Positions 1,232 through 54,434 of a DNA stretch of 59,296 nucleotides are shown here, piece after piece. The position numbers were made by a program, and so were the translations under genes. The notes beneath the pieces are model-generated. The model made no database searches, was not told where the DNA came from, and saw nothing but the letters and a program-made list of their open reading frames with translations. This DNA comes from an uncultured Candidatus Poseidoniales archaeon (lineage in GTDB: Archaea > Thermoplasmatota > Poseidoniia > Poseidoniales > Thalassarchaeaceae), in the NCBI GenBank assembly GCA_964414525.1, contig CAYPWN010000001.1:1-59296 (forward strand), in the 5' to 3' direction. The number at the start of each line of letters is the position of its first letter. Within the stretch, counting starts at the first letter, position 1.

Positions 1232-1618
1232 ATGCCAGGTACCACACGCGCTGAGATAAGGACTCTCAAGATAGGCAGGTACGTCGCAATCGACGAGGAC
1301 GCGTACAAGATACTCAGCATGTCCAAGTCCAAACCGGGCAAGCACGGCTCTGCCAAGGCTAGGATCGAGCTCGAGGACATCTTCACGGGGCAGAAGCGCT
1401 CCCACGTGGGAACGGTCACAGACACGATAAACATCCCAATCATAGAGAAGGGCTCCGCGATAATCACTCACATCCAGGGGAACGAGGTCCATGCCATGGA
1501 CAACAAGACCTACCAGACCCTCATACTCCCTGTGGACGAGAGTATGAACCTGCAGTCAGGTGGCGAGATCCAGTGGATGGAGGCAATGGGCAGGTACAAG
1601 ATCAGCAGGGACCACTAG
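1232..1618 (+). CDS. eif5a: Translation initiation factor 5A (aIF5A)
   Basis: The hypusination loop SKSKPGKHGSAKA is present, with the target Lys in GKHG at nt 1340-1342. The 128-aa size and OB-fold C-terminal half are typical. Confidence 0.95.
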   Translation: MPGTTRAEIRTLKIGRYVAIDEDAYKILSMSKSKPGKHGSAKARIELEDIFTGQKRSHVGTVTDTINIPIIEKGSAIITHIQGNEVHAMDNKTYQTLILPVDESMNLQSGGEIQWMEAMGRYKISRDH

Positions 1619-15156: not shown

Positions 15157-15314
15157 ACAATCGTGGTTTTCAAGCCATCCTAGTTTGCCCGACTATTATC
15201 TCAATTGCGTGACCATTCTAGCTTCTTCGGGCTATTAGCTTGGTTTTACTCACATTTCTGAGAAGCATTCATTTATGGTATCGATTGCCTGAAACGCAAG
15301 GTGGTTTGGAAAAA

Positions 15315-18300
15315 ATGCCAGAAATAAAGTACGTATCTGAAGTTTCAGATATGGATGGCATCTTGGACAGACTATCTCCTCCGGTGAGTAATTGGTTCCA
15401 GGAAAAGTTCGAAGACTTCACAGAGCCCCAGAAGGTAGCGATTCCGAAGATCCTAGATGGCGAACACCTGCTATTGTGCTCCCCAACCGGTTCCGGAAAG
15501 ACTCTCACTGCATTTCTGTCAATAATTGATGACCTAGTGAGGAGGTCTTTAGAAGGGACTCTTACGGATACTGTTCAATGCATTTACATCTCCCCAATCA
15601 AGGCTCTAGCAAATGATATACAGAAGAATCTGATTGGGCCACTTACTGAGATCAAAGACAGGTTTCTCCCGGGGAGAGCCCAGGAAATCAAAGTCGGACT
15701 CAGGACCGGGGATACCCCTCAGAAGGAGAGGGAGAGGATGCTCCGAAAGCCCCCACATATCCTCATTACGACACCAGAATCACTTGGACTAGCTCTGGCA
15801 TCAAAGAGGTTCAGGCCACTGCTGAATGAATTGAAGTGGCTTATCGTAGACGAGATGCACTCCCTTGTCCCAACGAAAAGAGGAACTCATCTCTCTCTTA
15901 GTCTAGCACTAATGGACTCGGTTGTCGAAACAGAGGTACAGAGGATTGGAATTAGTGCTACTATGGAGCCACTGAACGATGTTGCGGAATTCCTAGTAGC
16001 TAGCGATCCAAGGGAGAGCGAGGCTCAGAAGCAGAGTGTGTCAATAGCAAAGGTATCCGGCTCAAGAGAGCTAGATATGGACATCATCCTACCTTCACCG
16101 CGGTTTACTTCTATTCCGGTGAAAGAGATATTGGACCACAATATTGACAGAATTAAGGAATTGGTTGAGGCTCACACTACAACACTTGTTTTCGTAAACA
16201 CCAGGAACATGACCGAGACATTCGTACAGCGCCTAAAGGTTGCAGGCCTGGAGGGCGTTGAGGGCCATCACGGATCAATGGACAAGTCGATCAGGCTAGA
16301 TGTCGAGCAGAGACTTAAGGAAGGCAGACTGAGGTGCGTCGTATCATCTTCAAGTCTAGAGATGGGCATCGACATAGGCTCGGTCGACTTCGTAATTCAG
16401 GTCGGGTCTCCTGGATCAATAGCAACCGCTCTACAAAGGATCGGGAGGGCTGGACATCATGTAGGGGGCCTCCCAAGGGCACGGTTTCTTCCAACTTCCT
16501 CGCATGACCTTCTAGAGATAGTTGCCCTACAGAACGGCATACTCTCGGGGAACATGGATTTGCTAAAATTTCCCGAGAACTGCTTGGATGTCCTAGCTCA
16601 ATTCCTAATCGGCCTAACAATCATCAGAGAGTGGGACATTGACGAGGCATACGAGCTGGTGCAGGCCTCTTGGCCATACAGGTCCTTGCCTTATGACGAC
16701 TACATCGAGGTACTAGACCTACTCGAAGAGGAAAGGAGAGTTTGGGTGGATTGGGAGGAGAATAGATTTGGGAAGAGGGGCTACGCCCAGATGATATATT
16801 ACACGAATATTGGTACAATTTCCCCAGACAACAACTACCTCGTCTTCACTTCGGATGGCACTATGGTGGGCCAACTCTCCTCCTCTTTCGTTTCTAGCCT
16901 TAGGAACGGTGACGTGTTCCTTCTTGGGGGCTCGACATACAGGGTCTCCAGCGTTATCGGTACTAGGGTAAATGTTACTTCGGCAACTGGTTACAGGCCC
17001 ACTATCCCTTCGTGGACAGGGGAGGCAATGAGCAGGAGTAGCGAACTCAGTGGCGAAGTTCTTGACCTTTTGGAAATTCTTTCTGTCCAATACAGAACAG
17101 GCAGGGGGATCACTCCCTTCTTAGTAGACGTACTCGGCCTGAACAAGCCGGTTGCTAATGCATTGACTCAGTTCCTAGACGAGCACTCTGCAACTACGTT
17201 CCAGGTTCCATCCAAAGATCGCATCCTAGTCGAGCAGGTAGAAGCCCCGCTCCCAACATACGTGGTAACTACATGCAGAGGCAGGGCATTCAATCTAGCA
17301 CTAGGCAATCTGTTTGCGGGCATGGCTTCTAGGGACAATATCGCAGTACACGAGCTTTCGTTCGACGAGAACGGCTTCATGGCAAAGTTGAGCCATGAGA
17401 TTGAGGTATCCTCCATCCCAGCAGTTTTCCGTGGCTCGGGAAGCGAAGACACTCTTCACAAATATCTCATCGAGTCCCAGCTCTTCGCTAAGAGGTTCAG
17501 GGAGGTCTCATCTAGGAGCATGCTGAATCCCAGACGAGTAGGTGCAGAAGAGGTAAGCCCCAAGCAGTTCCAGCAGAAAGCTGAACAGATAATGAATCGA
17601 CATCGAAAGATGGATGACTCCGTAATCGTAAGGGAGGCAATGAACGAGATCCTAACAACCGACCTAGACATGGTGCAACTAAGACAGTTCATTTCAAGGA
17701 TGGATAGTGAGGATGTAAGAATTGTACATAGGAGGGTGAAGATACCTTCCCCGCTTGGCCTGACACTGTTTATGTCTTCATTCGAGGATCTTCTTTCGTT
17801 GAGGACAAGAGCATATCTCATAAAAGACGTAGACCCGGAAATTCTCAGGAGATTGCTAGGGGCCAGATCACTTGCAACAGAACTAGATGAGCAGAAACTC
17901 AGCGAGTATTACCAGTCAAAGGTTTCTGTCCCAACTAATGCGAACGAACTCCTCAGGCTTATGGACATGGGAGGGGGCCTTGAGCGCCAACTAACCCATC
18001 CTTTGTACAGTGAGAAGCTAAAGGACATAGAGTTCGAAACTCTCAGAGGCTGGGTCCACGAATTAGCAGAGAGGGAGCTGATTACCAAAATCAGAGGAAC
18101 TGGCCTGGAAAAGATCGACGGAAAGTGGTTCTCAATGAGGATGACGGAGGTACATGGCACGCTAGGCTGTCTTGCTGTGGCAGGGGCAGCCGAGATGGAC
18201 GACCTGAGAGAGCTGTACACGGGAGGGCTAAGCTACGAGGTTGGCGAGGGTTTCGTAGGGGGGGAACCGACCAATTGGAGGAAGAAGACTCTGTCCGACC

Positions 18301-33607: not shown

Positions 33608-34909
33608 TCACAGAACTGATTCGAAAGGAGACCTGTCAATACCCGGTTCAATGGTGGCATCAATTCCAATCTTGCTGGTTGTACCATCATCCGATCTGCT
33701 AGGATCAAGGCTTGATCCTTTTTGGCTGGATAGGATAATTGTGTCTTTGTCCGGTTGCCATCTAGTCATGAGGGCCCACTCCACTCTAGACGAATCAGAA
33801 ACGTCAATGTCACTGTCTACAACAATAACTTGCTTCATTGATTTGTGACCTTCGAGAGCGGCCCGAATGGCCTTCTTGCCATCCCCAAGATTTTTCGGAT
33901 TAATCTGCACTACGGAAGAAAGCCAGCCACTACCTCCTTCAGTTAGGTACACGTCAGTGCAATCCACAACCTCTGAGACTGCATTTTTGATGGTCGGTGC
34001 TCTAGGCATCCCCATCAAAGTCATGTGCTCCACCCCGGCAGGAATCAGAGCATGGAAAATCGGAGAGTCCCGATGGTATATTGAATCGTATTCGATTACC
34101 GGCTCAAGCCTAACGTCATCGACAGTGCCAGTGATGTCAACATAGGGGCCCTCTTTGGATGTAGAATTCGTGATCCTCGCCTCCATTACGTATTCAGCAT
34201 CTGCTGGCGCAATCACTCCGTTGGGAAGCTCTACTACATTGAATTGGGAATCATACAGTCGTTCGTGCAGGGCAGCAGCTACCCTTAACTCATCCAGTGG
34301 TTCACTAAAGGACATAGCCCCTGCTAGTAGGACAACGGGGTCCGGACCATTGACTACCGCTATGCTGATTTCGTCATTTGACTCCTGAGCCTCTTCAACC
34401 ATCGTTCTAAGGTGACGGGGCACAATTCTGACGCTTGTCGAATTTTCACTCTTGATTAACTGTCTGTGGAATGATGTGTTTCTCAGACCCCCGTGCTGGG
34501 CAATTATGATCGATGCGGACTGGTATCTGCCACCATCCTCACGGTAGTGCCATGGAATAGGGAGTGACTTGATGTTGACCTCAGCCATCTTGTTTTGCAT
34601 CGCGGGGGAATCAGAAATATCAACTAAAGAAGGCTCAGACGGGTTCTCCATAGCCCAAGCGAGGATGTCTATCAACTCCCCGGGGTCAACTCCGAATGCG
34701 TCACAGAGCCTACTCCTAGTCAGGATGTTGATTGCTACTCTGTGACCGGGGCACTCCTTTATTTCATTGAATAGCATTGGCTCATTTCCGCTTGAAACGG
34801 ACAAATCCCTAATTTCGAAATTTGTACTGACTGGCCCATCGATTATCCGGCTGCCTTCAATGAGATTTCTGAATCCCATGCCCCGTTCCGGCGTACTAAT
34901 CCGCTTCAA
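33608..34909 (-). CDS. UbiD-family (prenylated-FMN dependent) decarboxylase
   Basis: The UbiD-like layout and length (about 423-433 aa) are present. The start is TTG at 34909 or ATG at 34879. The substrate is unresolved (see findings). Confidence 0.8.
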   Translation of the reverse strand: MKRISTPERGMGFRNLIEGSRIIDGPVSTNFEIRDLSVSSGNEPMLFNEIKECPGHRVAINILTRSRLCDAFGVDPGELIDILAWAMENPSEPSLVDISDSPAMQNKMAEVNIKSLPIPWHYREDGGRYQSASIIIAQHGGLRNTSFHRQLIKSENSTSVRIVPRHLRTMVEEAQESNDEISIAVVNGPDPVVLLAGAMSFSEPLDELRVAAALHERLYDSQFNVVELPNGVIAPADAEYVMEARITNSTSKEGPYVDITGTVDDVRLEPVIEYDSIYHRDSPIFHALIPAGVEHMTLMGMPRAPTIKNAVSEVVDCTDVYLTEGGSGWLSSVVQINPKNLGDGKKAIRAALEGHKSMKQVIVVDSDIDVSDSSRVEWALMTRWQPDKDTIILSSQKGSSLDPSRSDDGTTSKIGIDATIEPGIDRSPFESVL

Positions 34910-38394: not shown

Positions 38395-40119
38395 TCAGTT
38401 GACCCTTGTAATCTGGAAGTCAGTCAACTCCCTCAAAACACCCACAGCACTACTCTCGACTAATTTGTCTAGGCATTGATGAGCAATAGAGTGGTGGTGG
38501 AGAGCCCTCTCTCTGGCATACTCGATAGAGCCGGACCCCCTCAATTCCTCGACTGCACTTGCTAGGTCATCGTCACTGCAAGCCCCAGAACCGTAAACCC
38601 TGTTGAAGAATGGTAACTCCTCATCGCACTGCAATGCATGAATAGCAATCAGTGTCCTTTTGCCCTGAACTAAATCTGAGCCAGCAGGCTTACCCAGAGT
38701 CTCCGTATCTCCTGTAATGTCAATAAGATCATCCATTAGTTGGAAACATAGCCCTAGGTTCAACCCCCAATCTGCCATGTTGCTTACTACAGCCCCTTCT
38801 GCTCCAGCCAGAATCGCCCCTGTCCTAGCGCATGTTTCGAACATTGCACTGGTCTTTCCAGCTATCATGGCTATGTACTCGTCTTCGGTGACTGTAGCTC
38901 GTTTCTCAAATTCAATGTCCTCTTGCTGACCTTCAGCGACCTTTCTCACCATCTCCCCTATGGAGGTAATCAGTTGTCCTAGGTTGCTGCTAGGAATATG
39001 TTCGGACTCGGCTAGAATCTCGAACCCAACAGCAAGCATCGCGTCTCCTGCATTTATTGCAGTCGCATCATCATATGCAATGTGTACTGCATCAAGCCCC
39101 CTTCTGATGGGATCCTGATCAATAATGTCATCATGTATGAGGGTGAAGTTATGGATGATTTCAATCGATGCGCCTAGGATATAGTGCCCTTCGTTCTCCC
39201 CACCAATTGCCTCCGCTACCAGTCTGGGCAAAATAGCTCTGAGCCTCTTCCCCCCTCCTTTGAACAAGTGTGTCATGGCCGAATAGAGTGTATCCTGACC
39301 CATTTTGCTCAAGCTATTCATTATTACCCCCTCCACTATATCTCGGTGTTCAGCAAGTGTATCAAGCAAACTTATCCCAGAGTATACTGAATCGCCATTC
39401 ATGTCGACTTCACCACAATACACTATCTCATTCTTCTTCGAATTTGCGATTGAATCGGGAATGCAGTCATTTGGCATGGCGAAATTCCGCCAGATTAGTC
39501 TGAACCAGGGTGCCACAATCTCGTTTTCCCACTCTCCTTCTCCCGACATCATACGCTCAATGTTTGCCCCATCAGCCCAAATCACATCAGAGATCTCGTT
39601 CTCATTCTGATTCACTTCGGTGTCGCTGATTACTACGAGGATATGGTCTATTTCTCGTTCGATCCATTCCTCACTCCACCTGCAGGAATACTCCATCAAC
39701 CCGATGTGGTGGAAGTCCCAAGAATCAGTGGTCTCTCTCGATATCCCGAGCTCCTGCTCTAGCTTCCTTTTTGCCGCATTTATTGCCCCCTCCTCACCGC
39801 CTACCTCATCCACCAAGTCAAGTGGATGGCTGCAACAACTGTTTGCCCAGACGCCCGGGAAGGTAATTTTCTCAGACGCCCTCTTCTGAATCAGGAGGCG
39901 CCCTTCGGTGTCGAAAATTAGAACACTGAACGCCCTATGGCGTTCTCCTAGGCCCTTATGGCATCCTAATTTGGACATTGTTCCCACCACATTGTCCTTT
40001 TCATCGACCAGTAGGCACATCTCTTTCATCATCAGAGACTGGGCCGCGTCGTGGTTTTCTAGGGAGTCCATGTCTGGGACCATTCTAGACAGATGGGGAG
40101 GAGGTGTGTATATGAACAC
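38395..40119 (-). CDS. Fusion protein: type-1 isopentenyl-diphosphate isomerase (N-terminal) + geranylgeranyl diphosphate synthase (C-terminal)
   Basis: The N-terminal half has HRAFSVLIFDTEGRLLIQKRASEKITFPGVWANSCCSHPL and PWFRLIW (IDI1). The C-terminal half has FARM LIHDDIIDQD and SARM FQLMDDLIDITG. The start is GTG at 40119, abutting the ipk stop, or ATG at 40083. Confidence 0.85.
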   Translation of the reverse strand: MFIYTPPPHLSRMVPDMDSLENHDAAQSLMMKEMCLLVDEKDNVVGTMSKLGCHKGLGERHRAFSVLIFDTEGRLLIQKRASEKITFPGVWANSCCSHPLDLVDEVGGEEGAINAAKRKLEQELGISRETTDSWDFHHIGLMEYSCRWSEEWIEREIDHILVVISDTEVNQNENEISDVIWADGANIERMMSGEGEWENEIVAPWFRLIWRNFAMPNDCIPDSIANSKKNEIVYCGEVDMNGDSVYSGISLLDTLAEHRDIVEGVIMNSLSKMGQDTLYSAMTHLFKGGGKRLRAILPRLVAEAIGGENEGHYILGASIEIIHNFTLIHDDIIDQDPIRRGLDAVHIAYDDATAINAGDAMLAVGFEILAESEHIPSSNLGQLITSIGEMVRKVAEGQQEDIEFEKRATVTEDEYIAMIAGKTSAMFETCARTGAILAGAEGAVVSNMADWGLNLGLCFQLMDDLIDITGDTETLGKPAGSDLVQGKRTLIAIHALQCDEELPFFNRVYGSGACSDDDLASAVEELRGSGSIEYARERALHHHSIAHQCLDKLVESSAVGVLRELTDFQITRVN

Positions 40120-46645: not shown

Positions 46646-47602
46646 TCAAGTCGTGTTTTTACGCTGAATCGCCTTTCGGGCGGCAGAACAGACATCTTCA
46701 GCAGATAATCCTAGCTCTGACATTAGTTCAGAGGGGCTTCCACTTTCACCGAACCTGTCTTTGACACCCACCATCTCCAAGGGAGTGGGATGGTTAGTGG
46801 CGAGCCATTCGGAAATGGCACTACCTAGGCCGCCCATAACAGAATGGTCTTCGGCCGAAACAAAGCAACCGCAGGTCTCTGCAAGCTCCCCGATTAAATC
46901 CACATCAAGAGGTTTGATTGTATGCATATCTATCACCGATGCACCGATACCTTCGGAATATAGTGCTTCGGAAGCTATCACTGCCTGCTCTACCATCACA
47001 CCACATGCGATAATTGCCACATCACTCCCTTCACGAATCGTGCTCCCAGACCCAATCCTTAGCTCAGTGACACTATCTTCGTCATAGACCCGGGGGGTTT
47101 TGTTCCTTGCAGTCCTCATGTAGGAGGACCCATCAAGATCTAATAATTGCACAGTCAACTTCTCTGCAGAGATATCGTCGCATGGGTGAATAACTGTCAT
47201 TTTTGGTATGGTTCTATATATCGCTAGGTCCTCTATTGACTGAGCACTGCTTCCATCGGTACCTGTGTGGATTCCACCATGGCTTCCGCAAATGTGCACA
47301 TTTAGACCCGGTCTTGCAATCCCATTCCTGACTTGCTCGAATGCCCGCTCTGTGAAAATGGCGAACGTGCTTGCAAAGGGAATCTTCCCAGATGAAGCCA
47401 TTCCTGCTGCGACGAGCATCATGTTCTGTTCAGCAATGCCCAGAGAGACGGTCCTTTCTGGGAATTGGTCCCTAAAATAGCATGATTTTGTGGACTTCCC
47501 AAGATCAGCTTCCAATGCTACGACTCTAGGGTCATCTGCCAATCTCAATAGCCCCTTTCCATACCCATCTCTGGATGCTCCTCCTGTTGATGGTGCGCTC
47601 AT
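46646..47602 (-). CDS. Transketolase, C-terminal (pyrimidine-binding) subunit
   Basis: It has a Pyr-binding/C-terminal domain pattern (GIAEQNMMLVAAGMA) and is 318 aa. It overlaps the upstream N-terminal subunit gene by 4 nt. Confidence 0.9.
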   Translation of the reverse strand: MSAPSTGGASRDGYGKGLLRLADDPRVVALEADLGKSTKSCYFRDQFPERTVSLGIAEQNMMLVAAGMASSGKIPFASTFAIFTERAFEQVRNGIARPGLNVHICGSHGGIHTGTDGSSAQSIEDLAIYRTIPKMTVIHPCDDISAEKLTVQLLDLDGSSYMRTARNKTPRVYDEDSVTELRIGSGSTIREGSDVAIIACGVMVEQAVIASEALYSEGIGASVIDMHTIKPLDVDLIGELAETCGCFVSAEDHSVMGGLGSAISEWLATNHPTPLEMVGVKDRFGESGSPSELMSELGLSAEDVCSAARKAIQRKNTT

Positions 47603-48432
47603 GATAGCTCCTCCAACGCCAACGCCAACTCCTCATCGCTAGGCGCCTTTCCATGGAATGATGGGTTGTCCTCCATGAATGAAACACCCTTTCCTTTGGT
47701 GGTATGCGCAATTATCGCAACTGGAGACTCTTCGGCATCTGCCCATCTGAATGAATCCACCAAGGCACCCATGTCGTGTCCGTCAACATCCCTGACTGTC
47801 CAACCAAATGCGGAGAATTTCTCGCCTATGTCTCCAACTTCCATCTGGACCTCCATGAAGTCGTCATTCTGTATGCGGTTCCGGTCTACTATGACTCTGA
47901 GGTTAGAAGCACTGTGGTAGGAGGCGGCCATAGCAGCTTCCCAAACCTGCCCTTCCTGTGTCTCGCCATCCCCAATCATAACCCAAATAGACCTCTCACT
48001 TGAGTCCATTTTCGCAGCAATGGAACAGCCCAGGCCGAAGGATAGGCCCATACCTAGGCTACCAGCAGAGAAATCTACCCCCTTTGTCCAGTTCATGTCA
48101 ACGTGGCCCTGGCATGCCGATCCCATAGACCTGAATCCCATGATGTCTTCTTCATTCAATACCCCAATCTGGTGCAGTAAGGCGTACATTGCTGGACTAG
48201 CATGGCCCTTGCTCATGATGAACCTGTCACGGTCTTCCCAATCCGGATCGCTAGTATCGAACCTTAGAGTCGATCCATAAAGCGCAACCATGCAGTCAAT
48301 AGCTGATAGAGAACCCCCGGGATGGCCTGATTTTGCAGCATGCGTCATCCTGACTATGTCTATCCTGCATTGCTTGGCCATTTCAGTTAACTCAGAGACG
48401 CTATTGCTCAAGTCTCCCCTCACAAATATCAT
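47599..48432 (-). CDS. Transketolase, N-terminal (TPP-binding) subunit
   Basis: SGHPGGSLS and GDGETQEG are present. I chose the ATG at 48432 (277 aa). The 376-aa ORF to 48729 would overlap the divergent radical SAM gene. Confidence 0.9.
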   Translation of the reverse strand: MIFVRGDLSNSVSELTEMAKQCRIDIVRMTHAAKSGHPGGSLSAIDCMVALYGSTLRFDTSDPDWEDRDRFIMSKGHASPAMYALLHQIGVLNEEDIMGFRSMGSACQGHVDMNWTKGVDFSAGSLGMGLSFGLGCSIAAKMDSSERSIWVMIGDGETQEGQVWEAAMAASYHSASNLRVIVDRNRIQNDDFMEVQMEVGDIGEKFSAFGWTVRDVDGHDMGALVDSFRWADAEESPVAIIAHTTKGKGVSFMEDNPSFHGKAPSDEELALALEELS

Positions 48433-48505
48433 TCGCACGTGCGGGCTATTGATAGTTTTCAATGACAATGTTTCAAATCTTGGTTGTAGTCGGAGATAAC
48501 AATTG

Positions 48506-49705
48506 ATGTCCGGCTTGTACGATACGGATCCTCTTTGGAGGGAAAAGCTGTCCGATATGGATGTTCCATTATCGGTCAAAAAAGATGTACTGCTAACTGA
48601 TGTTCTGGACATGATCATTTGTGGGGAGAGAATTAGCACCGAACTTGGCGCGGAATTGCACAGGAGCCCAAACCTAACTGGGATAGCTTCCCTTGCTGAC
48701 TGCATAAAGCGGTCAAGATTCGGTTCCAACGTATTCTACAACGAGAATCTTCACGTCAATACGACAAACGTTTGCACCCTTGCATGCAGATTCTGTGCAT
48801 TTCGACGAGGATACCGAAGCGAAGACGCGTATTCCCTGTCGCCTGAGGATTTCGTCTCTAGAATACTCCCGTACAGCAGCATAATTGACGAGGTTCATGC
48901 GGTGGGGGGCCTTCATCCGACATGGACCGTAGATCATTACTCGGAAATGTATAGGCTCTCCAAGGAGAAATTCCCCCATATTAGCATAAAGTCTCTAACT
49001 GCGGTTGAAGTAAAGCATATAGCCTCCAGATCTGGTATTTCCATTTCTGAAACCCTCCGTATCCTCCTCGAATCGGGGTTAGATTCCCTACCCGGGGGGG
49101 GTGCCGAGATCCTTGTGGATTCTATCAGGGACCGAATATGCAGGGGCAAGGAGAAATCAGATGAATACCTTGAGATACATGAGATTGCTCACTCGCTAGG
49201 AATCCCAACAAACTGTACCATGCTCTTCGGAACGATAGAATCTGTCTATGATCGTATGACACATCTGAATAAGCTAAGATTACAGCAAGACTCGTCACAT
49301 GGCTTCCAGTGCTTCGTGCCATACCCGTTTTTGAAGGACAACACCAGGCTTCCAGAGGCCAAGATTGCATCACCAAGCGACGTGATTAGAGTAATTGCAA
49401 TATCCAGGATTATGCTAGACAACATCCCCCACATCAAGGCCTATAGGATGAATATCGGGGACCACCTATCTGCCATAGCGATTAACTCTGGGGCCGACGA
49501 TATCGATGGCACGGTTGGCCATGAGGAGATAATGCATGAGGCCGGCAGCACCACTAGGGTTGACTACGATAGCGACAGACTGTCAAAGCTTGTCGAGTCC
49601 TCAGGATTGACTCCAGTGAGGAGGAACTCCACTTACTCGTCATTCAGCATAAACAACTTCCAAAACTCCCGCCATGCTCTAAGCCTTCCAATCTCGGGAC
49701 AGTGA
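48506..49705 (+). CDS. Radical SAM enzyme of the futalosine pathway (MqnC/MqnE family)
   Basis: The CTLACRFCAF cluster (Cx3Cx2C) is present. The CofH/MqnC/MqnE-like length and GG..P motifs are present. It lies immediately upstream of mqnA. I cannot separate MqnC from MqnE by eye. Confidence 0.75.
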   Translation: MSGLYDTDPLWREKLSDMDVPLSVKKDVLLTDVLDMIICGERISTELGAELHRSPNLTGIASLADCIKRSRFGSNVFYNENLHVNTTNVCTLACRFCAFRRGYRSEDAYSLSPEDFVSRILPYSSIIDEVHAVGGLHPTWTVDHYSEMYRLSKEKFPHISIKSLTAVEVKHIASRSGISISETLRILLESGLDSLPGGGAEILVDSIRDRICRGKEKSDEYLEIHEIAHSLGIPTNCTMLFGTIESVYDRMTHLNKLRLQQDSSHGFQCFVPYPFLKDNTRLPEAKIASPSDVIRVIAISRIMLDNIPHIKAYRMNIGDHLSAIAINSGADDIDGTVGHEEIMHEAGSTTRVDYDSDRLSKLVESSGLTPVRRNSTYSSFSINNFQNSRHALSLPISGQ

Positions 49706-50514
49706 GTGAGATGTCTTGGGAGAGGGTTCTTGGGAGGGTCTCGTTCATCAACTGCGATCCAGTTTTCCATTCGATTGACGAAGGATGGGACGTTCTATCG
49801 GCACCCCCCTCATGGCTGACTGGGCATCTTCTACGGAGAGATTGCATAACAGCACCAATACCAACTGCAGACTACGCAAATCACCAAGAGAAACTCGACC
49901 TGATATCTGATATCGGCATTGTGGGCAGGGAGAAAGTAGGTTCCGTGCTATTGTTCGGGAACAGACCTATTGATTCGATGAGGGACATCGCTCTTCCCTC
50001 GGACTCATCCACATCCAGCATGCTACTAAGATGGCTATTGAACGAAAGGGGAGTAGACCCAAAATTTGTAGAGATGGGGCCAGATTTAGACTCGATGCTC
50101 GAAGAGTGCGACGGAGCATTGATTATCGGTGACAGGGCAATATCCGCTGCCAACTCTAATCCCTCTATGGTGCTAATGGACCTGGCAAAAGAATGGATTG
50201 AGATTACAGGTTTTCCAATGGTATTCGGTGTATTCGCAGCTCGGAGAGACTCACAAATCAGCCTAGTAAGAGAGGCCCGCGAAGTGATGCTTGAACAGTA
50301 CTACTCGTTCCTGGAGGACGAACAAGTCAGGCAGTCAGTAATTTCAACCTCTTCCCAGAAGATCAACCTTCCGCCCGACAGAGTGTCTGCTTACTTCGAA
50401 GATGAAGTCAGCAACATCCTGGATGAAGACTCCATCAAGGGTCTAGAGACATTTCTGGTCAACGTATGCGGAGTAGACTCCGAAATTTCATGGATCGTCA
50501 GTCAATCTGAATAA
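49702..50514 (+). CDS. mqnA: Chorismate dehydratase MqnA (futalosine pathway)
   Basis: It has the VitK2-biosynthesis fold pattern: GRVSFINCDPV, TADYANH, LIIGDRA and DLAKEWIEITGFPMVFGVFAARRD. The start is GTG at 49702 or ATG at 49711. Confidence 0.7.
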   Translation: MSEMSWERVLGRVSFINCDPVFHSIDEGWDVLSAPPSWLTGHLLRRDCITAPIPTADYANHQEKLDLISDIGIVGREKVGSVLLFGNRPIDSMRDIALPSDSSTSSMLLRWLLNERGVDPKFVEMGPDLDSMLEECDGALIIGDRAISAANSNPSMVLMDLAKEWIEITGFPMVFGVFAARRDSQISLVREAREVMLEQYYSFLEDEQVRQSVISTSSQKINLPPDRVSAYFEDEVSNILDEDSIKGLETFLVNVCGVDSEISWIVSQSE

Positions 50515-50981
50515 TCTAGCTTGTCGTTTGACACCCAATTAAGCAAATCGATCGCAACCTCACATGACTCAGCAATCACTACTTGACTGTCATCGACGAA
50601 TTTCTCCAGGGTAGACATTGCTACTCTGTTACCAATAGCTCCTAGAGCCTCAGCCGCCTCATGCCTGACCATCAGGTCCTCTTCATGGTCCTCGAGTCTC
50701 TCTATCAGGTGGGGGACTGCATGATCGTCCTGCATCTGCCCCAAAACGTATGCAATCTCGTGCTTGAGTAGTGCCGATGACGAGCTGAATGCCCTAGCCA
50801 GATAGTCCACTGCATCTTTGCCCCCGATATTCCTCAGAGCGAATAGTGCCCTCATCCTGTGGAACATCCTCTCCTCTTCATTGCATAGGGTCTCGCCCAG
50901 TGTGCTCACTCGCGCATCGTCGCTGGCCGGGGCAGGGTCTACAGACCCGAACTCGCTGACTTCGGGCCTTTTCTCACTCAT
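50502..50981 (-). CDS. Half-size deoxyhypusine hydroxylase-like HEAT-repeat protein (two His-Glu motifs)
   Basis: SALLKHEIAYVLGQMQD and LMVRHEAAEALGAIG lie 33 residues apart. The flanking FALRNIGG and ESCEVAIDLL are also present. The ATG at 50981 overlaps the mqnD stop (ATGAGTGA). The TTG at 50996 is an alternative start. Confidence 0.75.
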   Translation of the reverse strand: MSEKRPEVSEFGSVDPAPASDDARVSTLGETLCNEEERMFHRMRALFALRNIGGKDAVDYLARAFSSSSALLKHEIAYVLGQMQDDHAVPHLIERLEDHEEDLMVRHEAAEALGAIGNRVAMSTLEKFVDDSQVVIAESCEVAIDLLNWVSNDKLDYSD

Positions 50982-51840
50982 CTCTCTCAGCCCCAATGAA
51001 ATTCATTGACCTCGGGTCGAAGTCTGCCCTAACTAGTCCTATTTCCTTTCCCCTTTCGAGGAATAGCCTAACCGCTTCCCGACCTTCAGGTCCATAGTCA
51101 ACCGTTCGTTCATTGACGTACATCCTGACAAATTCTTCGTTAGTGTCCTCATCTATCCCTCTACCCCACTGTCTAGAAAATTCTAATGCCAAATCAGGGT
51201 TAGAAAGCGAGTACTGGATACTATTCCTAATGTCAATGGATATCTGTTCGCACATTTCGTCTCCCAGGTCCTTCCTTACTACATTGCCACCGAGAGGTAG
51301 CGGCAGACCAGTATCATTATTCCACCAAACCCCAAGGTCAACAACTAGGTTTGCGCCCTCGTTATTCCATGTTAACTGCCCTTCGTGAATTATAACGCCG
51401 GCATCATACTCCCCACTGATGACCCCGGGTAGTATTCTATCGAAAGGGACCTCTATTGTTGCCACCTCCCCCAAAGCCATGACAAGAGCCATGTATGAAC
51501 TAGTGCTGGTTCCGGGAACTGCGATTTCACAGCTTGCTACCTCGTCCAAGCTCATTTCTCTCTTCGAAACAAGGATTGGGCCGTACCCCTCTCCCATTGA
51601 GGCTCCACAGTTCATTAGAGAGTATGAATCTGATATCTCCGGGAATGATCGGATGCTCACTGCTGAAACTTCGTATGTCCCTCTCCTAGCCTCTCGGTTC
51701 AGGGTGTCAATGTCTACCAATACGTGTTCGTAGGCCCTTCCGGGGGTATCTATTGCCCCCGTGGTCAGAGCATAGAACATGAACGCGTCATCTGGATCCG
51801 GAGAGTGACCAACCCTGATCTTCACTTCGGTGTCATTCAC
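50974..51840 (-). CDS. mqnD: 1,4-dihydroxy-6-naphthoate synthase MqnD
   Basis: RVGHSPDPDDAFMFYAL, DIDTLNREA, AVPGTSTSSY, FDRILPGVISGEYDAGVIIHEGQLTW and VVDLGVWWNNDTGLPLPLGGNVVRKDLG are present. The start is GTG. Confidence 0.85.
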   Translation of the reverse strand: MNDTEVKIRVGHSPDPDDAFMFYALTTGAIDTPGRAYEHVLVDIDTLNREARRGTYEVSAVSIRSFPEISDSYSLMNCGASMGEGYGPILVSKREMSLDEVASCEIAVPGTSTSSYMALVMALGEVATIEVPFDRILPGVISGEYDAGVIIHEGQLTWNNEGANLVVDLGVWWNNDTGLPLPLGGNVVRKDLGDEMCEQISIDIRNSIQYSLSNPDLALEFSRQWGRGIDEDTNEEFVRMYVNERTVDYGPEGREAVRLFLERGKEIGLVRADFDPRSMNFIGAERDE

Positions 51841-51856
51841 GTTCTATCGGTAGAAC
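51841..51856. promoter_or_regulatory. Perfect inverted repeat GTTCTA-tcgg-TAGAAC abutting the mqnD start codon
   Basis: The 6-bp arms are separated by 4 nt and lie directly 5' of the GTG at 51840 on the minus strand. It could be a protein-binding site or a 5'-proximal hairpin. The function is unknown. Confidence 0.2.
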
Positions 51857-51904
51857 ATTAGTTGAAATGCATTTGCTTCCAGATTCCTGCCACGGAATAA
51901 TGAA

Positions 51905-52123
51905 GTGCATTTCCAAATTGGCCAATTCGTGCCAGACCCAGATAAGCTGTCAACCGCATCAGGGCAACTAGGACCAGTATGCGCCATTACTGGCAAGGCT
52001 CTGAAGTTCTCTGAAGCGATCGTATTGGACAATGAGTACGTTTGCTGGGAGGCCTACGTAGAAGCAACGGGAGCAAGCCCGTCCACCGATGGTAAAGAAG
52101 TCGGCGGACTGAAACTCAGCTGA
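51905..52123 (+). CDS. Doubtful small ORF (72 aa)
   Basis: The only start is GTG, with no SD and no recognised family. I list it only because it fills the longest otherwise non-coding gap in the window. Confidence 0.2.
   Translation: MHFQIGQFVPDPDKLSTASGQLGPVCAITGKALKFSEAIVLDNEYVCWEAYVEATGASPSTDGKEVGGLKLS
51916..51927. promoter_or_regulatory. Perfect 12-bp palindrome AATTGGCCAATT in the mqnD-priS divergent region
   Basis: The sequence is self-complementary. Its coordinates are cross-checked against both-strand ORF translations. The function is unknown. Confidence 0.2.
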
Positions 52124-52159
52124 TTGAAACCTTATTTCCCCCCTCTATCTTGATGGGTC

Positions 52160-53365
52160 ATGGCGGAAGGCTGGAGCAGGTTCGCACTGAGGTTCTCCGA
52201 ATACTACGACTCAGTCTCAACCGAATCACTCTGGGTCCCCCCCAGGCTAAGAAATAGGGAGTGGATGTTCATACCTTGGGGAGGGGGTTTTCCAGACAGA
52301 CACCGATCCTTTTCTGACAAGGGTTCGTTACATTCGTACCTAAGGAGCAGAGCACCACACTCTTGTTTCCATAGTACTGCCTATTACGAGGATCCGGCAA
52401 ACAGGAAAATGTCAGAAAAGGGTTGGCTTGGGGCGGACCTAATCTTCGATTTAGACGGAGATCACTTGCCCGGTATTTCCGACAACGATTTCCCTGGAAT
52501 GATTGAAGTCATCCAGGCCCAAGCATGGAGGCTATGGAATGAGTTCCTAGAACCCGAGTTCGGATTCAAACCCGAATACACCCAGACTACGTTCTCAGGT
52601 CACAGGGGCTTCCACATACACGTTCGAGATCCAAAACTACTTCATATGGATTCAAATGCTAGGAGAGAGATTGTGAACTACATCAGGGGAGAGGGAATCG
52701 ATGTACAATCAGTACTTACAGGACATGATATAGGCTGGGGATCGAGAGCCAGGAATGCAATGGATACAGTGATTCAGGAGCTTAGGGAAATCGAAAAGGG
52801 AGATAAAAATGGTAAGCAGATTCTGGGCAGATACCACGACATTCTTCGATCACGCGCCAAGTCACCTTCTACCAAACTAAAATCCTCTAGCAGAGCAAAA
52901 ATTGTCGAATTGGCGAATCTGGCTTCATCGGAAGACCGGATATCTAGGCTCAGGGACGACCAAACACTGTCAGTATTTGGTGATGTATGCACACCCATGT
53001 TCTGGGAACTAGTGAAGGGCGACTCTTCCGTAGTAATGGGAAGTGCTGGAGAGACTGACGAAGCAGTAACTGTTGACACTAAGCGCGTAATCAGATGGGT
53101 CGGAAGCCTACACGGAAAATCTGGACTCAGGGTGACGGAATTCCCCCTAGAACGGCTAGATCCAGACGGTAGTAGGCCCTTCGATCCACTCAATGAGGCA
53201 GTGGTATTCAAAGGAGGAAATGTTGGTGTGAGAATTATTGCCGAAGACGTGACAGCCGAGATTTCAGGCGTCAGGCTAGATCCCTCTGTCGGAGATGAAA
53301 TGGAAGTCGAGGAGTCAATGGCTATGTTCCTGTGCCTAAAAGGGTGGGCAGAGATAGTCAAATAG
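52160..53365 (+). CDS. priS: DNA primase small (catalytic) subunit PriS
   Basis: The catalytic GADLIFDLDGDH and FSGHRGFHIHV are present. It is 401 aa. Confidence 0.9.
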   Translation: MAEGWSRFALRFSEYYDSVSTESLWVPPRLRNREWMFIPWGGGFPDRHRSFSDKGSLHSYLRSRAPHSCFHSTAYYEDPANRKMSEKGWLGADLIFDLDGDHLPGISDNDFPGMIEVIQAQAWRLWNEFLEPEFGFKPEYTQTTFSGHRGFHIHVRDPKLLHMDSNARREIVNYIRGEGIDVQSVLTGHDIGWGSRARNAMDTVIQELREIEKGDKNGKQILGRYHDILRSRAKSPSTKLKSSSRAKIVELANLASSEDRISRLRDDQTLSVFGDVCTPMFWELVKGDSSVVMGSAGETDEAVTVDTKRVIRWVGSLHGKSGLRVTEFPLERLDPDGSRPFDPLNEAVVFKGGNVGVRIIAEDVTAEISGVRLDPSVGDEMEVEESMAMFLCLKGWAEIVK

Positions 53366-53423: not shown

Positions 53424-54434
53424 TTGAATAGTAGTGGACTGCGGAAGCCATGCGTGATTGACCCGCTTGACGAGCAAGATTCGGACTCAGAAGGGGACGC
53501 AAAACCACTACCGCCCCCTCCACCAGGAATCTCAGTCCCCCCTACTGGTATTGACCTTCCACCACCAGAATTCAACCTTCCACCCCCTGAGAGTACATCG
53601 CCACAGTTTGGATTTTCTCCGGAAACCGGGAGCGACTCAGATTTAGTCGACGCCGCTGGCGCATTGTCCTCGCAAACTACCCATGTCTCGGATGATTCTC
53701 CTAATGACTTCAAGTCAGTTTGGGACAGGAGGAAGAGCACAGACCCATCCATAGCAGGAAGCTCAAGGGACAACATATACAACAGGATAAACAGGATTTC
53801 CTCTGGGAAGGGTGACAGTCTGATGGACAGGTATTCTGACAGGTTCGGCTCAGACTTGGACAGAGAGATTATCGTACTGAGGAAGAAGGAGCAGGAGGAT
53901 CTAACTTCCATTAAGCCCACAGTGGAGCTCATCTCATCGGATAGCAACACGGAAATGTCCCTCAATGAGTTCATGGAGGCTATGGACGACGTCGACTTTG
54001 TCAATAGGGTGGCAATGAAGACTGGGGTTTCTGTGGACAAAATTGACGAGCTTGACATCAACTCGATGAAGTCATTCTTCGAGAAAGCCGATGCTGACAA
54101 CTCCGGAACGTTGGACTTCGACGAATTCGTGAATGGCATCATTCAGAGCTTCAGGAGTAGAGACGAGGACTTCTCCCACTTCTTTACTGTCGTGAACGGA
54201 TTGCTGGGTGAGCTCCCAGACGAGAAAGCGAACGCATTCATTGAATCAGACGGATTCGAGATGTTCAAGGAAGTCGGGGAGGGCCCCGAGGCAACCGAAC
54301 TAGAAACTAGGGCGGAGTTCTTCAAGATGGTTAATGAACTGCTAGTCGACTTGCCAGATCCAGTGATGAAGAGCTTCACAGAGTCACAGGACTTTGATCT
54401 CTACAAGCAGATAGCAGAAAGGTATGGTGGTTGA
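53424..54434 (+). CDS. Hypothetical protein with a proline-rich N-terminus, a canonical EF-hand and a duplicated C-terminal motif
   Basis: The N-terminus has PLPPPPPGISVPPTGIDLPPPEFNLPPPE. The EF-hand loop is DADNSGTLDFDE (54090-54125). The start is TTG at 53424 or GTG at 53454. Confidence 0.55.
   Translation: MNSSGLRKPCVIDPLDEQDSDSEGDAKPLPPPPPGISVPPTGIDLPPPEFNLPPPESTSPQFGFSPETGSDSDLVDAAGALSSQTTHVSDDSPNDFKSVWDRRKSTDPSIAGSSRDNIYNRINRISSGKGDSLMDRYSDRFGSDLDREIIVLRKKEQEDLTSIKPTVELISSDSNTEMSLNEFMEAMDDVDFVNRVAMKTGVSVDKIDELDINSMKSFFEKADADNSGTLDFDEFVNGIIQSFRSRDEDFSHFFTVVNGLLGELPDEKANAFIESDGFEMFKEVGEGPEATELETRAEFFKMVNELLVDLPDPVMKSFTESQDFDLYKQIAERYGG

What the first reader, a model, noticed from the sequence alone, without database searches (positions are those of the whole stretch)
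50502..50996. Half-size deoxyhypusine-hydroxylase-like di-iron HEAT protein, translationally coupled to mqnD
What the ORF shows: the 159-aa ORF (ATG 50981) contains exactly two His-Glu motifs, in the contexts SSALLKHEIAYVLGQMQD and DLMVRHEAAEALGAIG. They lie 33 residues apart (the first His codon is at 50762-50760). The flanking FALRNIGG and ESCEVAIDLL are also present.

Comparison with eukaryotic DOHH: these are the hallmark sequences of eukaryotic deoxyhypusine hydroxylase. From memory, that enzyme is about 300 aa. It is built from two four-HEAT dyads, each contributing two HE motifs with the same 33-residue spacing, and all four ligate the di-iron centre. This ORF spans only one dyad. An active site would therefore require a homodimer. 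That is what one would expect of the pre-duplication ancestor of the eukaryotic enzyme, or of a secondarily halved transfer.

Why it matters: DOHH is generally treated as eukaryote-specific, and the enzyme that makes mature hypusine in those archaea that have it is unresolved. The substrate is present in this window, since aIF5A carries an intact GKHG loop at 1340-1342.

Context and alternative role: the gene's ATG overlaps the mqnD stop by 8 nt (ATGAGTGA). Its 3' end overlaps mqnA convergently. It is therefore embedded in a quinone-biosynthesis cluster. An alternative role as an O2-dependent hydroxylase acting on a naphthoquinone intermediate cannot be excluded.
Basis: partly seen in the sequence, partly recalled or inferred. 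Interest (0 to 1): 0.75.

Follow-up and report, generated by a model that had tools for sequence, protein, structure and literature searches.

The report
Half-size archaeal deoxyhypusine hydroxylase homolog
Marine Group II archaea carry a gene for exactly one half of the enzyme that eukaryotes use to finish the hypusine modification of translation factor 5A, an enzyme the literature says archaea lack, and its sequence looks like the unduplicated ancestor of the two halves of the eukaryotic enzyme.

Summary
Window 50502-50981 (-) encodes a 159-aa four-HEAT protein. It matches human deoxyhypusine hydroxylase (DOHH, 4d4z) at E=1e-70 and aligns to both halves (118 and 120 bits). Its two conserved His-Glu motifs fall on the di-iron ligands. 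Generic HEAT arrays score only 20-45 bits per stretch.

All 105 related loci, from both Poseidoniales families (MGIIa and MGIIb), encode a 137-164 aa product; the few under 155 aa sit at contig ends. None is full length. The full-length relatives I checked are eukaryotic.

The archaeal core is equidistant from the eukaryotic N and C halves: 148.8 versus 148.9 bits against their profiles, and it has the shortest branch. It also carries the linker motif SVDPAP and the C-terminal tail. That argues against a recent truncated transfer and fits a pre-duplication-like form. The tree itself is unresolved.

A head-to-tail tandem of the archaeal sequence, modelled with a eukaryotic alignment, reproduces the human DOHH fold (TM 0.95, rmsd 1.1 A).

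mqnD lies immediately upstream in 64 of 65 loci, but the whole 12-kb neighbourhood is syntenic, so this says little about function.

Most likely it is a homodimeric di-iron hydroxylase acting on deoxyhypusine-aIF5A (confidence about 0.6). Activity, dimerisation and the presence of deoxyhypusine synthase (DHS) are untested. JGI auto-annotation already names it; I found no paper describing it.

The parts
50502..50981 (-). Half-size DOHH homolog: 159 aa, four HEAT hairpins, ATG at 50981, TGA stop at 50502-50504.
   Evidence: ORF. Pfam HEAT_2 and HEAT_PBS. Human DOHH 4d4z at E=1.1e-70, aligned to both halves. Eight helices per copy in the AF2 model.
50757..50762 (-). His74-Glu75, the first conserved HE motif (KHEIAYVLGQ). 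It is equivalent to human H56/E57 and H207/E208.
   Evidence: Alignment. Invariant in 146 archaeal sequences. Coordinates checked.
50658..50663 (-). His107-Glu108, the second conserved HE motif (MVRHEAAEALG), 33 residues after the first. It is equivalent to human H89/E90 and H240/E241.
50928..50945 (-). N-terminal SVDPAP motif. It is homologous to the inter-domain linker of eukaryotic DOHH (human S146-P151).
   Evidence: Query residues 6-28 align to the human linker PYLSVDPAPP. S.DPAP is invariant in the archaeal family. Human P152L in this linker is a disease variant (PMC11203672).
50505..50537 (-). C-terminal tail WVSNDKLDYSD. It aligns with the C-terminal tail of eukaryotic DOHH (e.g. EYVNSDSFEYAD).
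   Evidence: MAFFT alignment. Loss of the human tail (Y280*) lowers activity (PMC11203672).
50974..50981 (-). ATGAGTGA: the start codon of the DOHH-half gene overlaps the mqnD stop codon by 8 nt.
   Evidence: mqnD ends within about 30 nt upstream of the ortholog in 64 of 65 loci.
50974..51840 (-). mqnD-like gene (VitK2_biosynth, 1,4-dihydroxy-6-naphthoate synthase family), the first gene of the two-gene unit.
   Evidence: Pfam PF02621 at 1.5e-69. Synteny.
49702..50514 (+). mqnA-like gene (VitK2_biosynth), convergent, overlapping the 3' end of the DOHH-half gene by 13 nt.
   Evidence: The convergent arrangement is seen in 50 of 68 loci. It is absent in MGIIa, where the [mqnD-DOHH-half] block is inverted.
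48503..49705 (+). MqnE/MqnC-like radical SAM gene of the futalosine pathway.
   Evidence: Pfam Radical_SAM and CofH_C. NCBIfam MqnE 367 bits and MqnC 317 bits, both below their cut-offs.
1232..1618 (+). aIF5A, the presumed substrate. Lys37 (codon 1340-1342) sits in the SKPGKHGSAKA hypusination loop.
   Evidence: Pfam IF5A-like_N. Translation. Codon checked.

Best explanation
Proposed mechanism. The gene encodes a single-dyad (four-HEAT, two His-Glu) version of deoxyhypusine hydroxylase. Two identical chains are proposed to pair about a two-fold axis into the clam-shell seen in the eukaryotic enzyme. Each chain would supply one His/His/Glu iron site (H74, H107, E108), giving a symmetric di-iron centre. 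That centre would activate O2 and hydroxylate the deoxyhypusine side chain on Lys37 of aIF5A, producing hypusine in these aerobic surface-ocean archaea.

Expression. The gene is expressed as the distal gene of an operon that begins with mqnD.

Evolution. The protein sits at or near the node where the eukaryotic N and C halves diverged. It looks like the unduplicated form from which the eukaryotic enzyme arose by tandem duplication and fusion.

Shown here:
- specific homology to DOHH;
- conservation of the ligand and substrate-contact residues;
- half size in every locus;
- presence in both Poseidoniales families;
- equidistance from the two eukaryotic halves;
- compatibility of a tandem with the DOHH fold.

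Inferred, not shown: dimerisation, iron binding, the substrate, and the direction of evolution.
For: Homology and residues.
- Human DOHH 4d4z scores E=1.1e-70, with both halves matched at 118 and 120.5 bits. A profile of the half sequences gives E=4.7e-112.
- The HE motifs align to H56/E57, H89/E90, H207/E208 and H240/E241. The LGQ glycine aligns to the substrate-binding glycines. The residue roles come from PMC9117371.
- Generic HEAT arrays reach only 20-45 bits per stretch and lack the HE motifs. NCBIfam NblB and CpcE hits are far below their cut-offs.

Same level of constraint as eukaryotic orthologs.
- Core identity is 43.0% to N halves and 44.6% to C halves. Eukaryotic DOHHs are about that similar to each other (N-N 40.6%, C-C 47.3%), which suggests similar constraints.
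- The archaeal core scores 148.8 bits against the N-half profile and 148.9 bits against the C-half profile. N halves score 115 against the C profile, and C halves 127 against the N profile.
- Three-point branch lengths are A 0.33, N 0.62 and C 0.56.

Conservation and distribution.
- 53 columns are invariant across 146 archaeal sequences, including S.DPAP, KHEIAY, RHEAAEALG and ESCEV.
- The protein is more conserved (68-87% identity) than mqnD or mqnA (54-76%) across 22 species.
- It is half size in all 105 loci.
- It occurs in Thalassarchaeaceae and in Poseidonia.

Structure. A tandem A-A model has pLDDT 92 and pTM 0.90. It superposes on 4d4z at TM 0.95 and rmsd 1.1 A over 287 columns.

Context. 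aIF5A with an intact loop is in the window. GC and GC3 lie within the range of the neighbouring genes.
Against: - No biochemical or proteomic evidence exists.
- Early amino-acid analyses found mainly deoxyhypusine in Euryarchaeota, including Thermoplasmatales (PMC5178350).
- DHS was not found in the 0.97 Mb of sequence held here. Its presence rests on the literature statement that all archaeal genomes have it.
- The tandem model was steered by a eukaryotic alignment, and AlphaFold was trained after 4d4z was released. The same tandem without an alignment gave pLDDT 54 and pTM 0.36.
- The only conserved operon partner is a menaquinone gene, not a translation gene.
- A second half-size paralog elsewhere in the genome could not be excluded.
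Confidence: 0.6

Rival explanations
1. Same fold and di-iron chemistry, but a different substrate. The protein would be an O2-dependent hydroxylase acting on a naphthoquinone or menaquinone intermediate, or on another small molecule, and would be co-expressed with mqnD for that reason.
For: - mqnD lies immediately upstream and co-directional in 64 of 65 loci.
- The start codon overlaps or abuts the mqnD stop.
- In MGIIa the gene is the last of a co-directional mqnE-mqnA-mqnD cluster.
- The two-gene block stayed together through a local inversion between the two families.
- A UbiD-like decarboxylase and a polyprenyl synthase are also in the window.
Against: - From my knowledge of the pathway, the known futalosine route needs no hydroxylation after MqnD: the remaining steps are prenylation, decarboxylation and methylation.
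- The whole 12-kb neighbourhood is equally syntenic, including priS, MetRS, CNNM and an EF-hand protein. Adjacency therefore carries little functional information.
- The protein is as similar to eukaryotic DOHH as eukaryotic DOHHs are to each other, and it keeps the residues assigned to substrate binding. That would be unexpected after a change to a chemically unrelated substrate.
- Eukaryotes keep the family without having any mqn pathway.
Confidence: 0.15
2. A secondarily halved gene. A full-length DOHH was acquired from a crown-group eukaryote and truncated to its linker plus C-terminal half. It is now either a relic or has been re-purposed.
For: - The protein carries the SVDPAP linker motif at its N-terminus and the C-terminal tail, both of which flank the eukaryotic C half.
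- C halves give the higher phmmer score in most full-length relatives when the tails are included.
- The NJ tree on the full data places the archaeal clade next to the C halves.
- Within the limits of my searches, no other prokaryote was seen with the family.
Against: - Over the four-HEAT core the archaeal protein matches the N-half profile as well as the C-half profile (148.8 versus 148.9 bits). It matches the N profile better than N halves match their own profile.
- Core identity is 43.0% to N halves against 44.6% to C halves.
- Diagnostic positions are mosaic. LLKHE, GQMQ and ALGAIG are N-like; ESCEVA.D is C-like.
- It never nests stably inside a eukaryotic group. A+C support is 21% and quartets are close to one third each.
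- Base composition is native.
- Strong purifying selection in both families argues against a relic.
Confidence: 0.1
3. An obligate heterodimer, or a non-catalytic HEAT scaffold. The protein would pair with a second, diverged half-size paralog encoded elsewhere, or would simply act as a protein-binding HEAT module without metal chemistry.
For: - Whole genomes could not be searched.
- Only the best-scoring relatives are listed by the large searches, so a paralog at 40-50% identity would have been hidden.
- HEAT_PBS proteins are mostly non-enzymatic.
Against: - No second copy is present in the 59-kb window or in any of the 111 loci.
- A partner-specialised subunit should look N-like or C-like, but this one is equidistant.
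- All six ligand-equivalent residues and the surrounding motifs are invariant. Nothing would maintain that in a plain scaffold.
Confidence: 0.07

Closest known systems
Eukaryotic deoxyhypusine hydroxylase (human DOHH, PDB 4d4z/4d50; yeast Lia1; EC 1.14.99.29)
   Same: - PBS-type HEAT hairpins.
- His-Glu motifs 33 residues apart, aligned to the di-iron ligands.
- Conserved LRN, LGQ, MVRHEAAEALG and ESCEV motifs.
- The SVDPAP linker motif and the C-terminal tail.
- 43-45% core identity to each half.
- A tandem of the archaeal sequence models onto 4d4z at TM 0.95.
   Different: - One dyad (159 aa, four HEAT repeats, two HE motifs) instead of two (about 300 aa, eight repeats, four motifs). A di-iron site therefore needs two chains.
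- Archaeal host.
- Encoded in an operon with mqnD.
- Sequence intermediate between the N and C halves.
- Activity untested.
Retroviral aspartic protease versus pepsin (a homodimer of a half-size chain versus a duplicated, fused two-lobe enzyme)
   Same: This is an analogy from general knowledge. In both cases an active site lies on a two-fold axis. It is built either by two identical small chains or by two diverged halves of one chain that arose by tandem duplication and fusion.
   Different: The fold and chemistry are unrelated. Here the homodimer is inferred, not observed.
PBS-lyase HEAT-repeat proteins (CpcE/CpcF, NblB, E. coli YibA, MTH187, and the synthetic alphaRep designs derived from them)
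   Same: The same repeat type (Pfam HEAT_PBS and HEAT_2). These are the next-best structural and sequence matches.
   Different: - They have no His-Glu motifs.
- Scores are 20-45 bits per four repeats against 118-120 bits.
- TM is below 0.5 to the tandem model.
- NblB and CpcE model scores are 41 and 30 bits against cut-offs of 300 and 330.

Membership tests
Deoxyhypusine hydroxylase (DOHH, EC 1.14.99.29) | Sequence similarity specific to DOHH rather than to generic HEAT repeats. | tested here: met
   phmmer gives E=1.1e-70 to 4d4z, with 118 and 120.5 bits to the two halves. Generic HEAT arrays give 20-45 bits per stretch. In the 1.84-billion-protein library, the best non-archaeal hits are two-stretch proteins of about 300 aa, several of them named DOHH.
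Deoxyhypusine hydroxylase (DOHH, EC 1.14.99.29) | His-Glu motifs positioned on the di-iron ligands (H56, H89, E90, H207, H240, E241) and on the substrate-binding residues (E57, E208, and the glycine of LGQ). | tested here: met
   The residue-by-residue alignment places H74/E75 on H56/E57 and H207/E208. It places H107/E108 on H89/E90 and H240/E241, and G81 on the LGQ glycine. These residues are invariant in 146 archaeal sequences. Residue roles are from PMC9117371.
Deoxyhypusine hydroxylase (DOHH, EC 1.14.99.29) | Eight HEAT repeats in a symmetrical dyad with four HE motifs in one polypeptide. | tested here: not met
   The protein is 159 aa with four HEAT hairpins and two conserved HE motifs. 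All 105 related loci encode 137-164 aa products. The feature could be met only by a dimer.
Deoxyhypusine hydroxylase (DOHH, EC 1.14.99.29) | Two halves packing into the clam-shell fold of 4d4z. | tested here: inconclusive
   A tandem fusion modelled with a eukaryotic alignment gives pLDDT 92 and pTM 0.90, with TM 0.95 and rmsd 1.1 A to 4d4z. The model is steered by that alignment. The same tandem without an alignment gives pTM 0.36. No multimer prediction was available.
Deoxyhypusine hydroxylase (DOHH, EC 1.14.99.29) | Binds two Fe and hydroxylates deoxyhypusine on (e/a)IF5A using O2. | not testable with these tools
   This needs biochemistry or proteomics. aIF5A with an intact KPGKHGS loop is present. 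DHS was not found in the sequence held.
Deoxyhypusine hydroxylase (DOHH, EC 1.14.99.29) | Match to a curated DOHH model (HAMAP MF_03101 / InterPro IPR027517 / KEGG K06072). | not tested
   These models are not in the libraries on hand. Pfam and NCBIfam have no DOHH-specific model. JGI's pipeline names many orthologs 'deoxyhypusine monooxygenase', while NCBI names them 'HEAT repeat domain-containing protein' or 'hypothetical protein'.
PBS-lyase HEAT proteins (CpcE / NblB equivalogs) | Score above the curated equivalog cut-off. | tested here: not met
   NblB scores 41.3 bits against a cut-off of 300. CpcE scores 29.8 bits against 330.
Futalosine-pathway (Mqn) enzymes | Homology to a known Mqn enzyme. 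| tested here: not met
   The only Pfam hits are HEAT_2, HEAT_PBS, HEAT_EZ and HEAT. The link to mqn is positional only.

The most novel reading that the evidence does not exclude
The Poseidoniales protein is a surviving representative of the unduplicated, homodimeric ancestor of DOHH. On this reading the eukaryotic enzyme arose by tandem duplication and fusion of such a half-size gene. The C-tail of copy 1 and the SVDPAP N-tail of copy 2 became the inter-domain linker. The gene was either inherited from an archaeal ancestor or exchanged with the eukaryotic stem lineage before LECA. Marine Group II archaea would then make true hypusine with it, giving the first identified archaeal deoxyhypusine hydroxylase.
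Probability: 0.35. Interest if true: 0.85.

Novelty: new variant of a known kind. Interest (0 to 1): 0.7.

Why it matters
Contradiction with the literature. Reviews and primary papers up to at least 2021 state that no DOHH homolog exists in archaea (PMC5178350, PMC7773846, PMC8153317). Here there is a clear, strongly conserved homolog in the most abundant planktonic archaeal order.

Three questions become testable:
- Do some archaea use a DOHH-type enzyme to make hypusine?
- Can a di-iron DOHH site be built by a symmetric homodimer? If so, this would be a minimal 159-aa model of the enzyme.
- How did the eukaryotic two-dyad enzyme originate? The archaeal sequence matches both halves equally well and already carries the pieces that form the eukaryotic linker.

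What it does not solve. It does not explain how Crenarchaea such as Sulfolobus make hypusine, because the gene was seen only in Poseidoniales.

Tried and rejected
- Tree rooting. I used NJ with Kimura distances on 112 core sites, with generic HEAT arrays as outgroup. The archaeal clade has 94% support and DOHH versus outgroup 96%. A+C has only 21%, A+N 5% and N+C 2%. Quartets split close to one third each. After adding MGIIa sequences the archaeal clade itself is recovered in only 70% of replicates. I therefore make no claim about branching order. No ML program was on hand.
- Structure prediction. The tandem as a single sequence gave pLDDT 54 and pTM 0.36, which is uninformative.
- Distribution outside Poseidoniales. 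The genome-contig scan used patterns from the window protein and reached only close relatives: 22 Poseidoniales species and one spurious Desulfamplus HEAT hit at 32%. The metagenome scan keeps only the best 80 of at least 568 relatives. The representative search lists only the best 150, which are dominated by two-domain eukaryotic proteins. Half-size relatives at 40-50% identity in other lineages would have been invisible.
- Viral contigs. No relatives were found.
- DHS. None was found in the window or in any held locus. The query there was human DHS written from memory, so that negative is weak.
- Recent horizontal transfer by composition. Rejected: GC is 0.523 and GC3 0.581, within the range of the neighbouring genes.
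- Full-length relatives on long contigs (P0416, P0427). I checked whether they might be prokaryotic. Their neighbours are eukaryotic genes: an IP3 receptor, eIF2B-epsilon and C2H2 zinc fingers.
- Literature. Park et al. 2006 (PMC1324997) and Kim et al. 2006 (PMC1868894) are not held.
Full report
**1. The observation**

The ORF lister gives 50502-50996 (-), 164 aa from a TTG. The ATG at 50981 gives 159 aa beginning MSEKRP. That is where all homologs begin.

All the quoted sequence contexts are present. H74 is encoded at 50762-50760 and H107 lies 33 residues downstream. The start codon overlaps the mqnD stop in ATGAGTGA (50974-50981). The stop region overlaps the end of mqnA by 13 nt.

One detail needs correcting. 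There are three His-Glu dipeptides, not two. The third (H99-E100, 50682-50687) is not conserved in orthologs.

aIF5A lies at 1232-1618 with the loop SKPGKHGSAKA. The Lys37 codon is at 1340-1342.

**2. Is it DOHH-like or just a HEAT protein?**

Pfam sees only HEAT_2 and HEAT_PBS. NCBIfam gives weak NblB and CpcE hits far below their cut-offs. Neither library contains a DOHH model.

Against the PDB the picture is clear. Human DOHH (4d4z) matches at E=1.1e-70. The query aligns without gaps to both halves of the enzyme: chain positions 10-138 at 117.9 bits and 144-285 at 120.5 bits.

The chain carries a five-residue tag. Allowing for that offset:
- H74/E75 fall on H56/E57 and on H207/E208.
- H107/E108 fall on H89/E90 and on H240/E241.
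- G81 falls on the glycine of LGQ.

These are the residues reported to anchor the di-iron centre and to bind the deoxyhypusine substrate (PMC9117371).

The next PDB hits are synthetic alphaRep designs. Long natural HEAT_PBS arrays in the 1.84-billion-protein library score only 20-45 bits per four-repeat stretch and have no HE motif.

**3. Distribution and size**

The first homolog search returned 2961 proteins at E<=1e-10. The best 120 are mostly 157-163 aa (two reach 173 and 196 aa). They come from marine metagenomes and from MAGs named Thalassarchaeaceae, Thalassarchaeum or Euryarchaeota. JGI names several of them 'deoxyhypusine monooxygenase' and NCBI 'HEAT repeat domain-containing protein'.

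In the representative library the top 150 fall into three groups:
- about 113 two-stretch proteins of roughly 300 aa, some named DOHH, from Geosiphon, EukProt and metatranscriptome contigs;
- generic HEAT arrays;
- only three half-size clusters, two of which I looked up and found to be Thalassarchaeaceae.

A second search, seeded with the most divergent ortholog (56% identity), recovered 162-aa proteins from 'Candidatus Poseidonia'. The family is therefore present in both Poseidoniales families, MGIIa and MGIIb.

Full-length relatives on long contigs have eukaryotic neighbours.

Across 105 loci from GTDB genomes, single-cell genomes and metagenomes, the encoded product is always 137-164 aa. 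The few products below 155 aa lie at contig ends.

I could not see below the best-scoring hits of any large search. Absence from other prokaryotes is therefore not established.

**4. Relation to the two halves of the eukaryotic enzyme**

I split 70 full-length relatives into N and C halves and aligned them with the archaeal sequences.

| Comparison over the four-HEAT core | Result |
|---|---|
| Archaeal vs N halves, identity | 43.0% |
| Archaeal vs C halves, identity | 44.6% |
| N vs C halves, identity | 37.0% |
| N vs N, identity | 40.6% |
| C vs C, identity | 47.3% |
| 246 archaeal cores vs N-half profile | 148.8 bits |
| 246 archaeal cores vs C-half profile | 148.9 bits |
| N halves vs own profile / vs C profile | 144.6 / 115.2 bits |
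| C halves vs own profile / vs N profile | 159.1 / 126.9 bits |
| Three-point branch lengths A / N / C | 0.33 / 0.62 / 0.56 |

The archaeal group is also the closest of the three to the generic HEAT outgroup.

Diagnostic positions are mosaic. LLKHE, GQMQ, ALGAIG and the tail Trp are N-like. ESCEVA.D and MF are C-like.

The archaeal protein also carries an N-terminal F/Y-x-SVDPAP segment, which aligns with the eukaryotic inter-domain linker. Its C-terminal tail aligns with the eukaryotic C-terminus. Joining two copies head to tail would therefore create the eukaryotic linker from the tail of copy 1 and the N-tail of copy 2.

Trees do not resolve the order of events. Bootstrap support is 21% for A+C, 5% for A+N and 2% for N+C. 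Quartets with the outgroup split close to one third each.

My reading is as follows. A recent truncated transfer from a crown eukaryote is disfavoured. The protein sits at or near the duplication node and has changed little, as expected of a chain that must play both roles in a homodimer. Whether it branched before or just after the duplication is open.

**5. Structure**

A tandem of the window protein, aligned with 69 full-length relatives, gave an AlphaFold model with pLDDT 92 and pTM 0.90 and eight helices per copy. Foldseek places it on human DOHH at TM 0.95, rmsd 1.1 A over 287 columns and 43% identity. The next hits have TM below 0.5.

This shows compatibility, not proof. The alignment was eukaryotic, and 4d4z predates AlphaFold's training. 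Without an alignment the model is poor.

**6. Genomic context**

Across 22 GTDB species, the order is MetRS-CNNM-RDD-EF-hand-priS-mqnD>DOHH-half><mqnA<mqnE-transketolase-ProRS. This order is conserved throughout. The DOHH-half protein is the best conserved of the mqn block, at 68-87% identity against 54-76% for mqnD and mqnA.

In 80 metagenome loci plus further contigs:
- mqnD ends just upstream, co-directionally, in 64 of 65 informative cases.
- The convergent mqnA is present in 50 of 68.
- In some lineages a 700-790-aa WD40 gene is inserted nearby.
- In MGIIa the two-gene block [mqnD-DOHH-half] is inverted relative to its flanks, giving mqnE>mqnA>mqnD>DOHH-half>priS on one strand.

The gene is therefore always the distal partner of mqnD in one transcription unit. 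Functionally unrelated neighbours are equally syntenic, however, so the linkage is weak evidence for a role in quinone synthesis. From my knowledge of the futalosine pathway, it needs no hydroxylation after MqnD.

No DHS gene lies in the window or in the loci held. The literature states that DHS is present in all archaeal genomes (PMC5178350).

Base composition gives no sign of recent transfer. No viral relatives were found.

**7. What is known**

Papers from 2016 to 2021 state that no DOHH homolog or ortholog has been identified in archaea. They also state that hypusine in Crenarchaea is unexplained, while Euryarchaeota, Thermoplasmatales included, showed mainly deoxyhypusine in old amino-acid analyses.

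Full-text searches combining DOHH or deoxyhypusine with Marine Group II, Poseidoniales, Asgard and related terms found no description of an archaeal or half-size DOHH. Automatic annotation at JGI already attaches the enzyme name.

**8. Verdict**

The best explanation is a homodimeric, single-dyad deoxyhypusine hydroxylase acting on aIF5A in aerobic Marine Group II archaea (confidence about 0.6).

The main rival is the same chemistry on another substrate linked to menaquinone synthesis (about 0.15). Smaller probabilities go to a secondarily halved eukaryotic gene (about 0.1) and to a heterodimer or non-catalytic scaffold (about 0.07).

It fails one defining feature of canonical DOHH: eight repeats and four HE motifs in one chain. 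I therefore file it as a new variant of a known kind rather than as a member.

Noticed in passing
L101-L106 and L107-L108 compared with window 49702-53365: Between the two Poseidoniales families, the two-gene block [mqnD-DOHH-half] is inverted relative to its flanks. MGIIb has priS< mqnD> DOHH> <mqnA <mqnE. MGIIa has mqnE> mqnA> mqnD> DOHH> priS>, all on one strand.
   Followed up: partly
L024 7542-9902; L107 4749-6989; also L092 and L095: In several lineages a 700-790-aa WD40 beta-propeller gene is inserted into the mqn cluster. It sits between the DOHH-half gene and mqnA in some MGIIb lineages, and between mqnA and mqnD in an MGIIa-type contig.
   Followed up: no
L099 20-496: This ortholog of the DOHH-half gene contains two in-frame stop codons (DVL*LRS and LIN*LQD). 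It could be a pseudogene, a sequencing error or recoding. It is the only such case among 105 loci.
   Followed up: no
window 51905-52123 (+): A small 72-aa ORF lies just upstream of priS in the priS-mqnD intergenic region. A gene of similar size (64-69 aa) is called at the same relative place in L024, L026 and L107. In L107 it has a weak YrzR zinc-ribbon hit.
   Followed up: no
window 48503-49705 (+) and 47599-48729 (-): The only radical SAM gene of the mqn cluster scores for both MqnE (367 bits) and MqnC (317 bits), below both curated cut-offs. Which step it performs is therefore unclear. Its listed TTG start overlaps the listed start of the transketolase N-terminal gene by 227 nt, so one or both starts are probably internal.
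   Followed up: no
window 33608-34909 (-) and 38395-40119 (-): Further quinone- or isoprenoid-related genes lie 11-17 kb from the mqn cluster. One is a UbiD-family decarboxylase, possibly the decarboxylase of the late futalosine steps. The other is a polyprenyl synthetase fused to an N-terminal NUDIX domain.
   Followed up: no
window 53424-54434 (+): A 336-aa protein with a single EF-hand calcium-binding motif is conserved in synteny across Poseidoniales but diverges fast (29-81% identity).
   Followed up: no
window 15240-20612 (+) and 115-1131 (+): There is a 1790-aa ORF that I did not analyse. There is also a 338-aa protein with thrombospondin type-3 repeats and a PGF-CTERM archaeal surface-anchor signal.
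   Followed up: no
L023 6001-6216: The only non-Poseidoniales hit of the genome scan is a Desulfamplus HEAT-repeat stretch at 32% identity over residues 45-119. It is a generic HEAT match, not a DOHH relative.
   Followed up: partly
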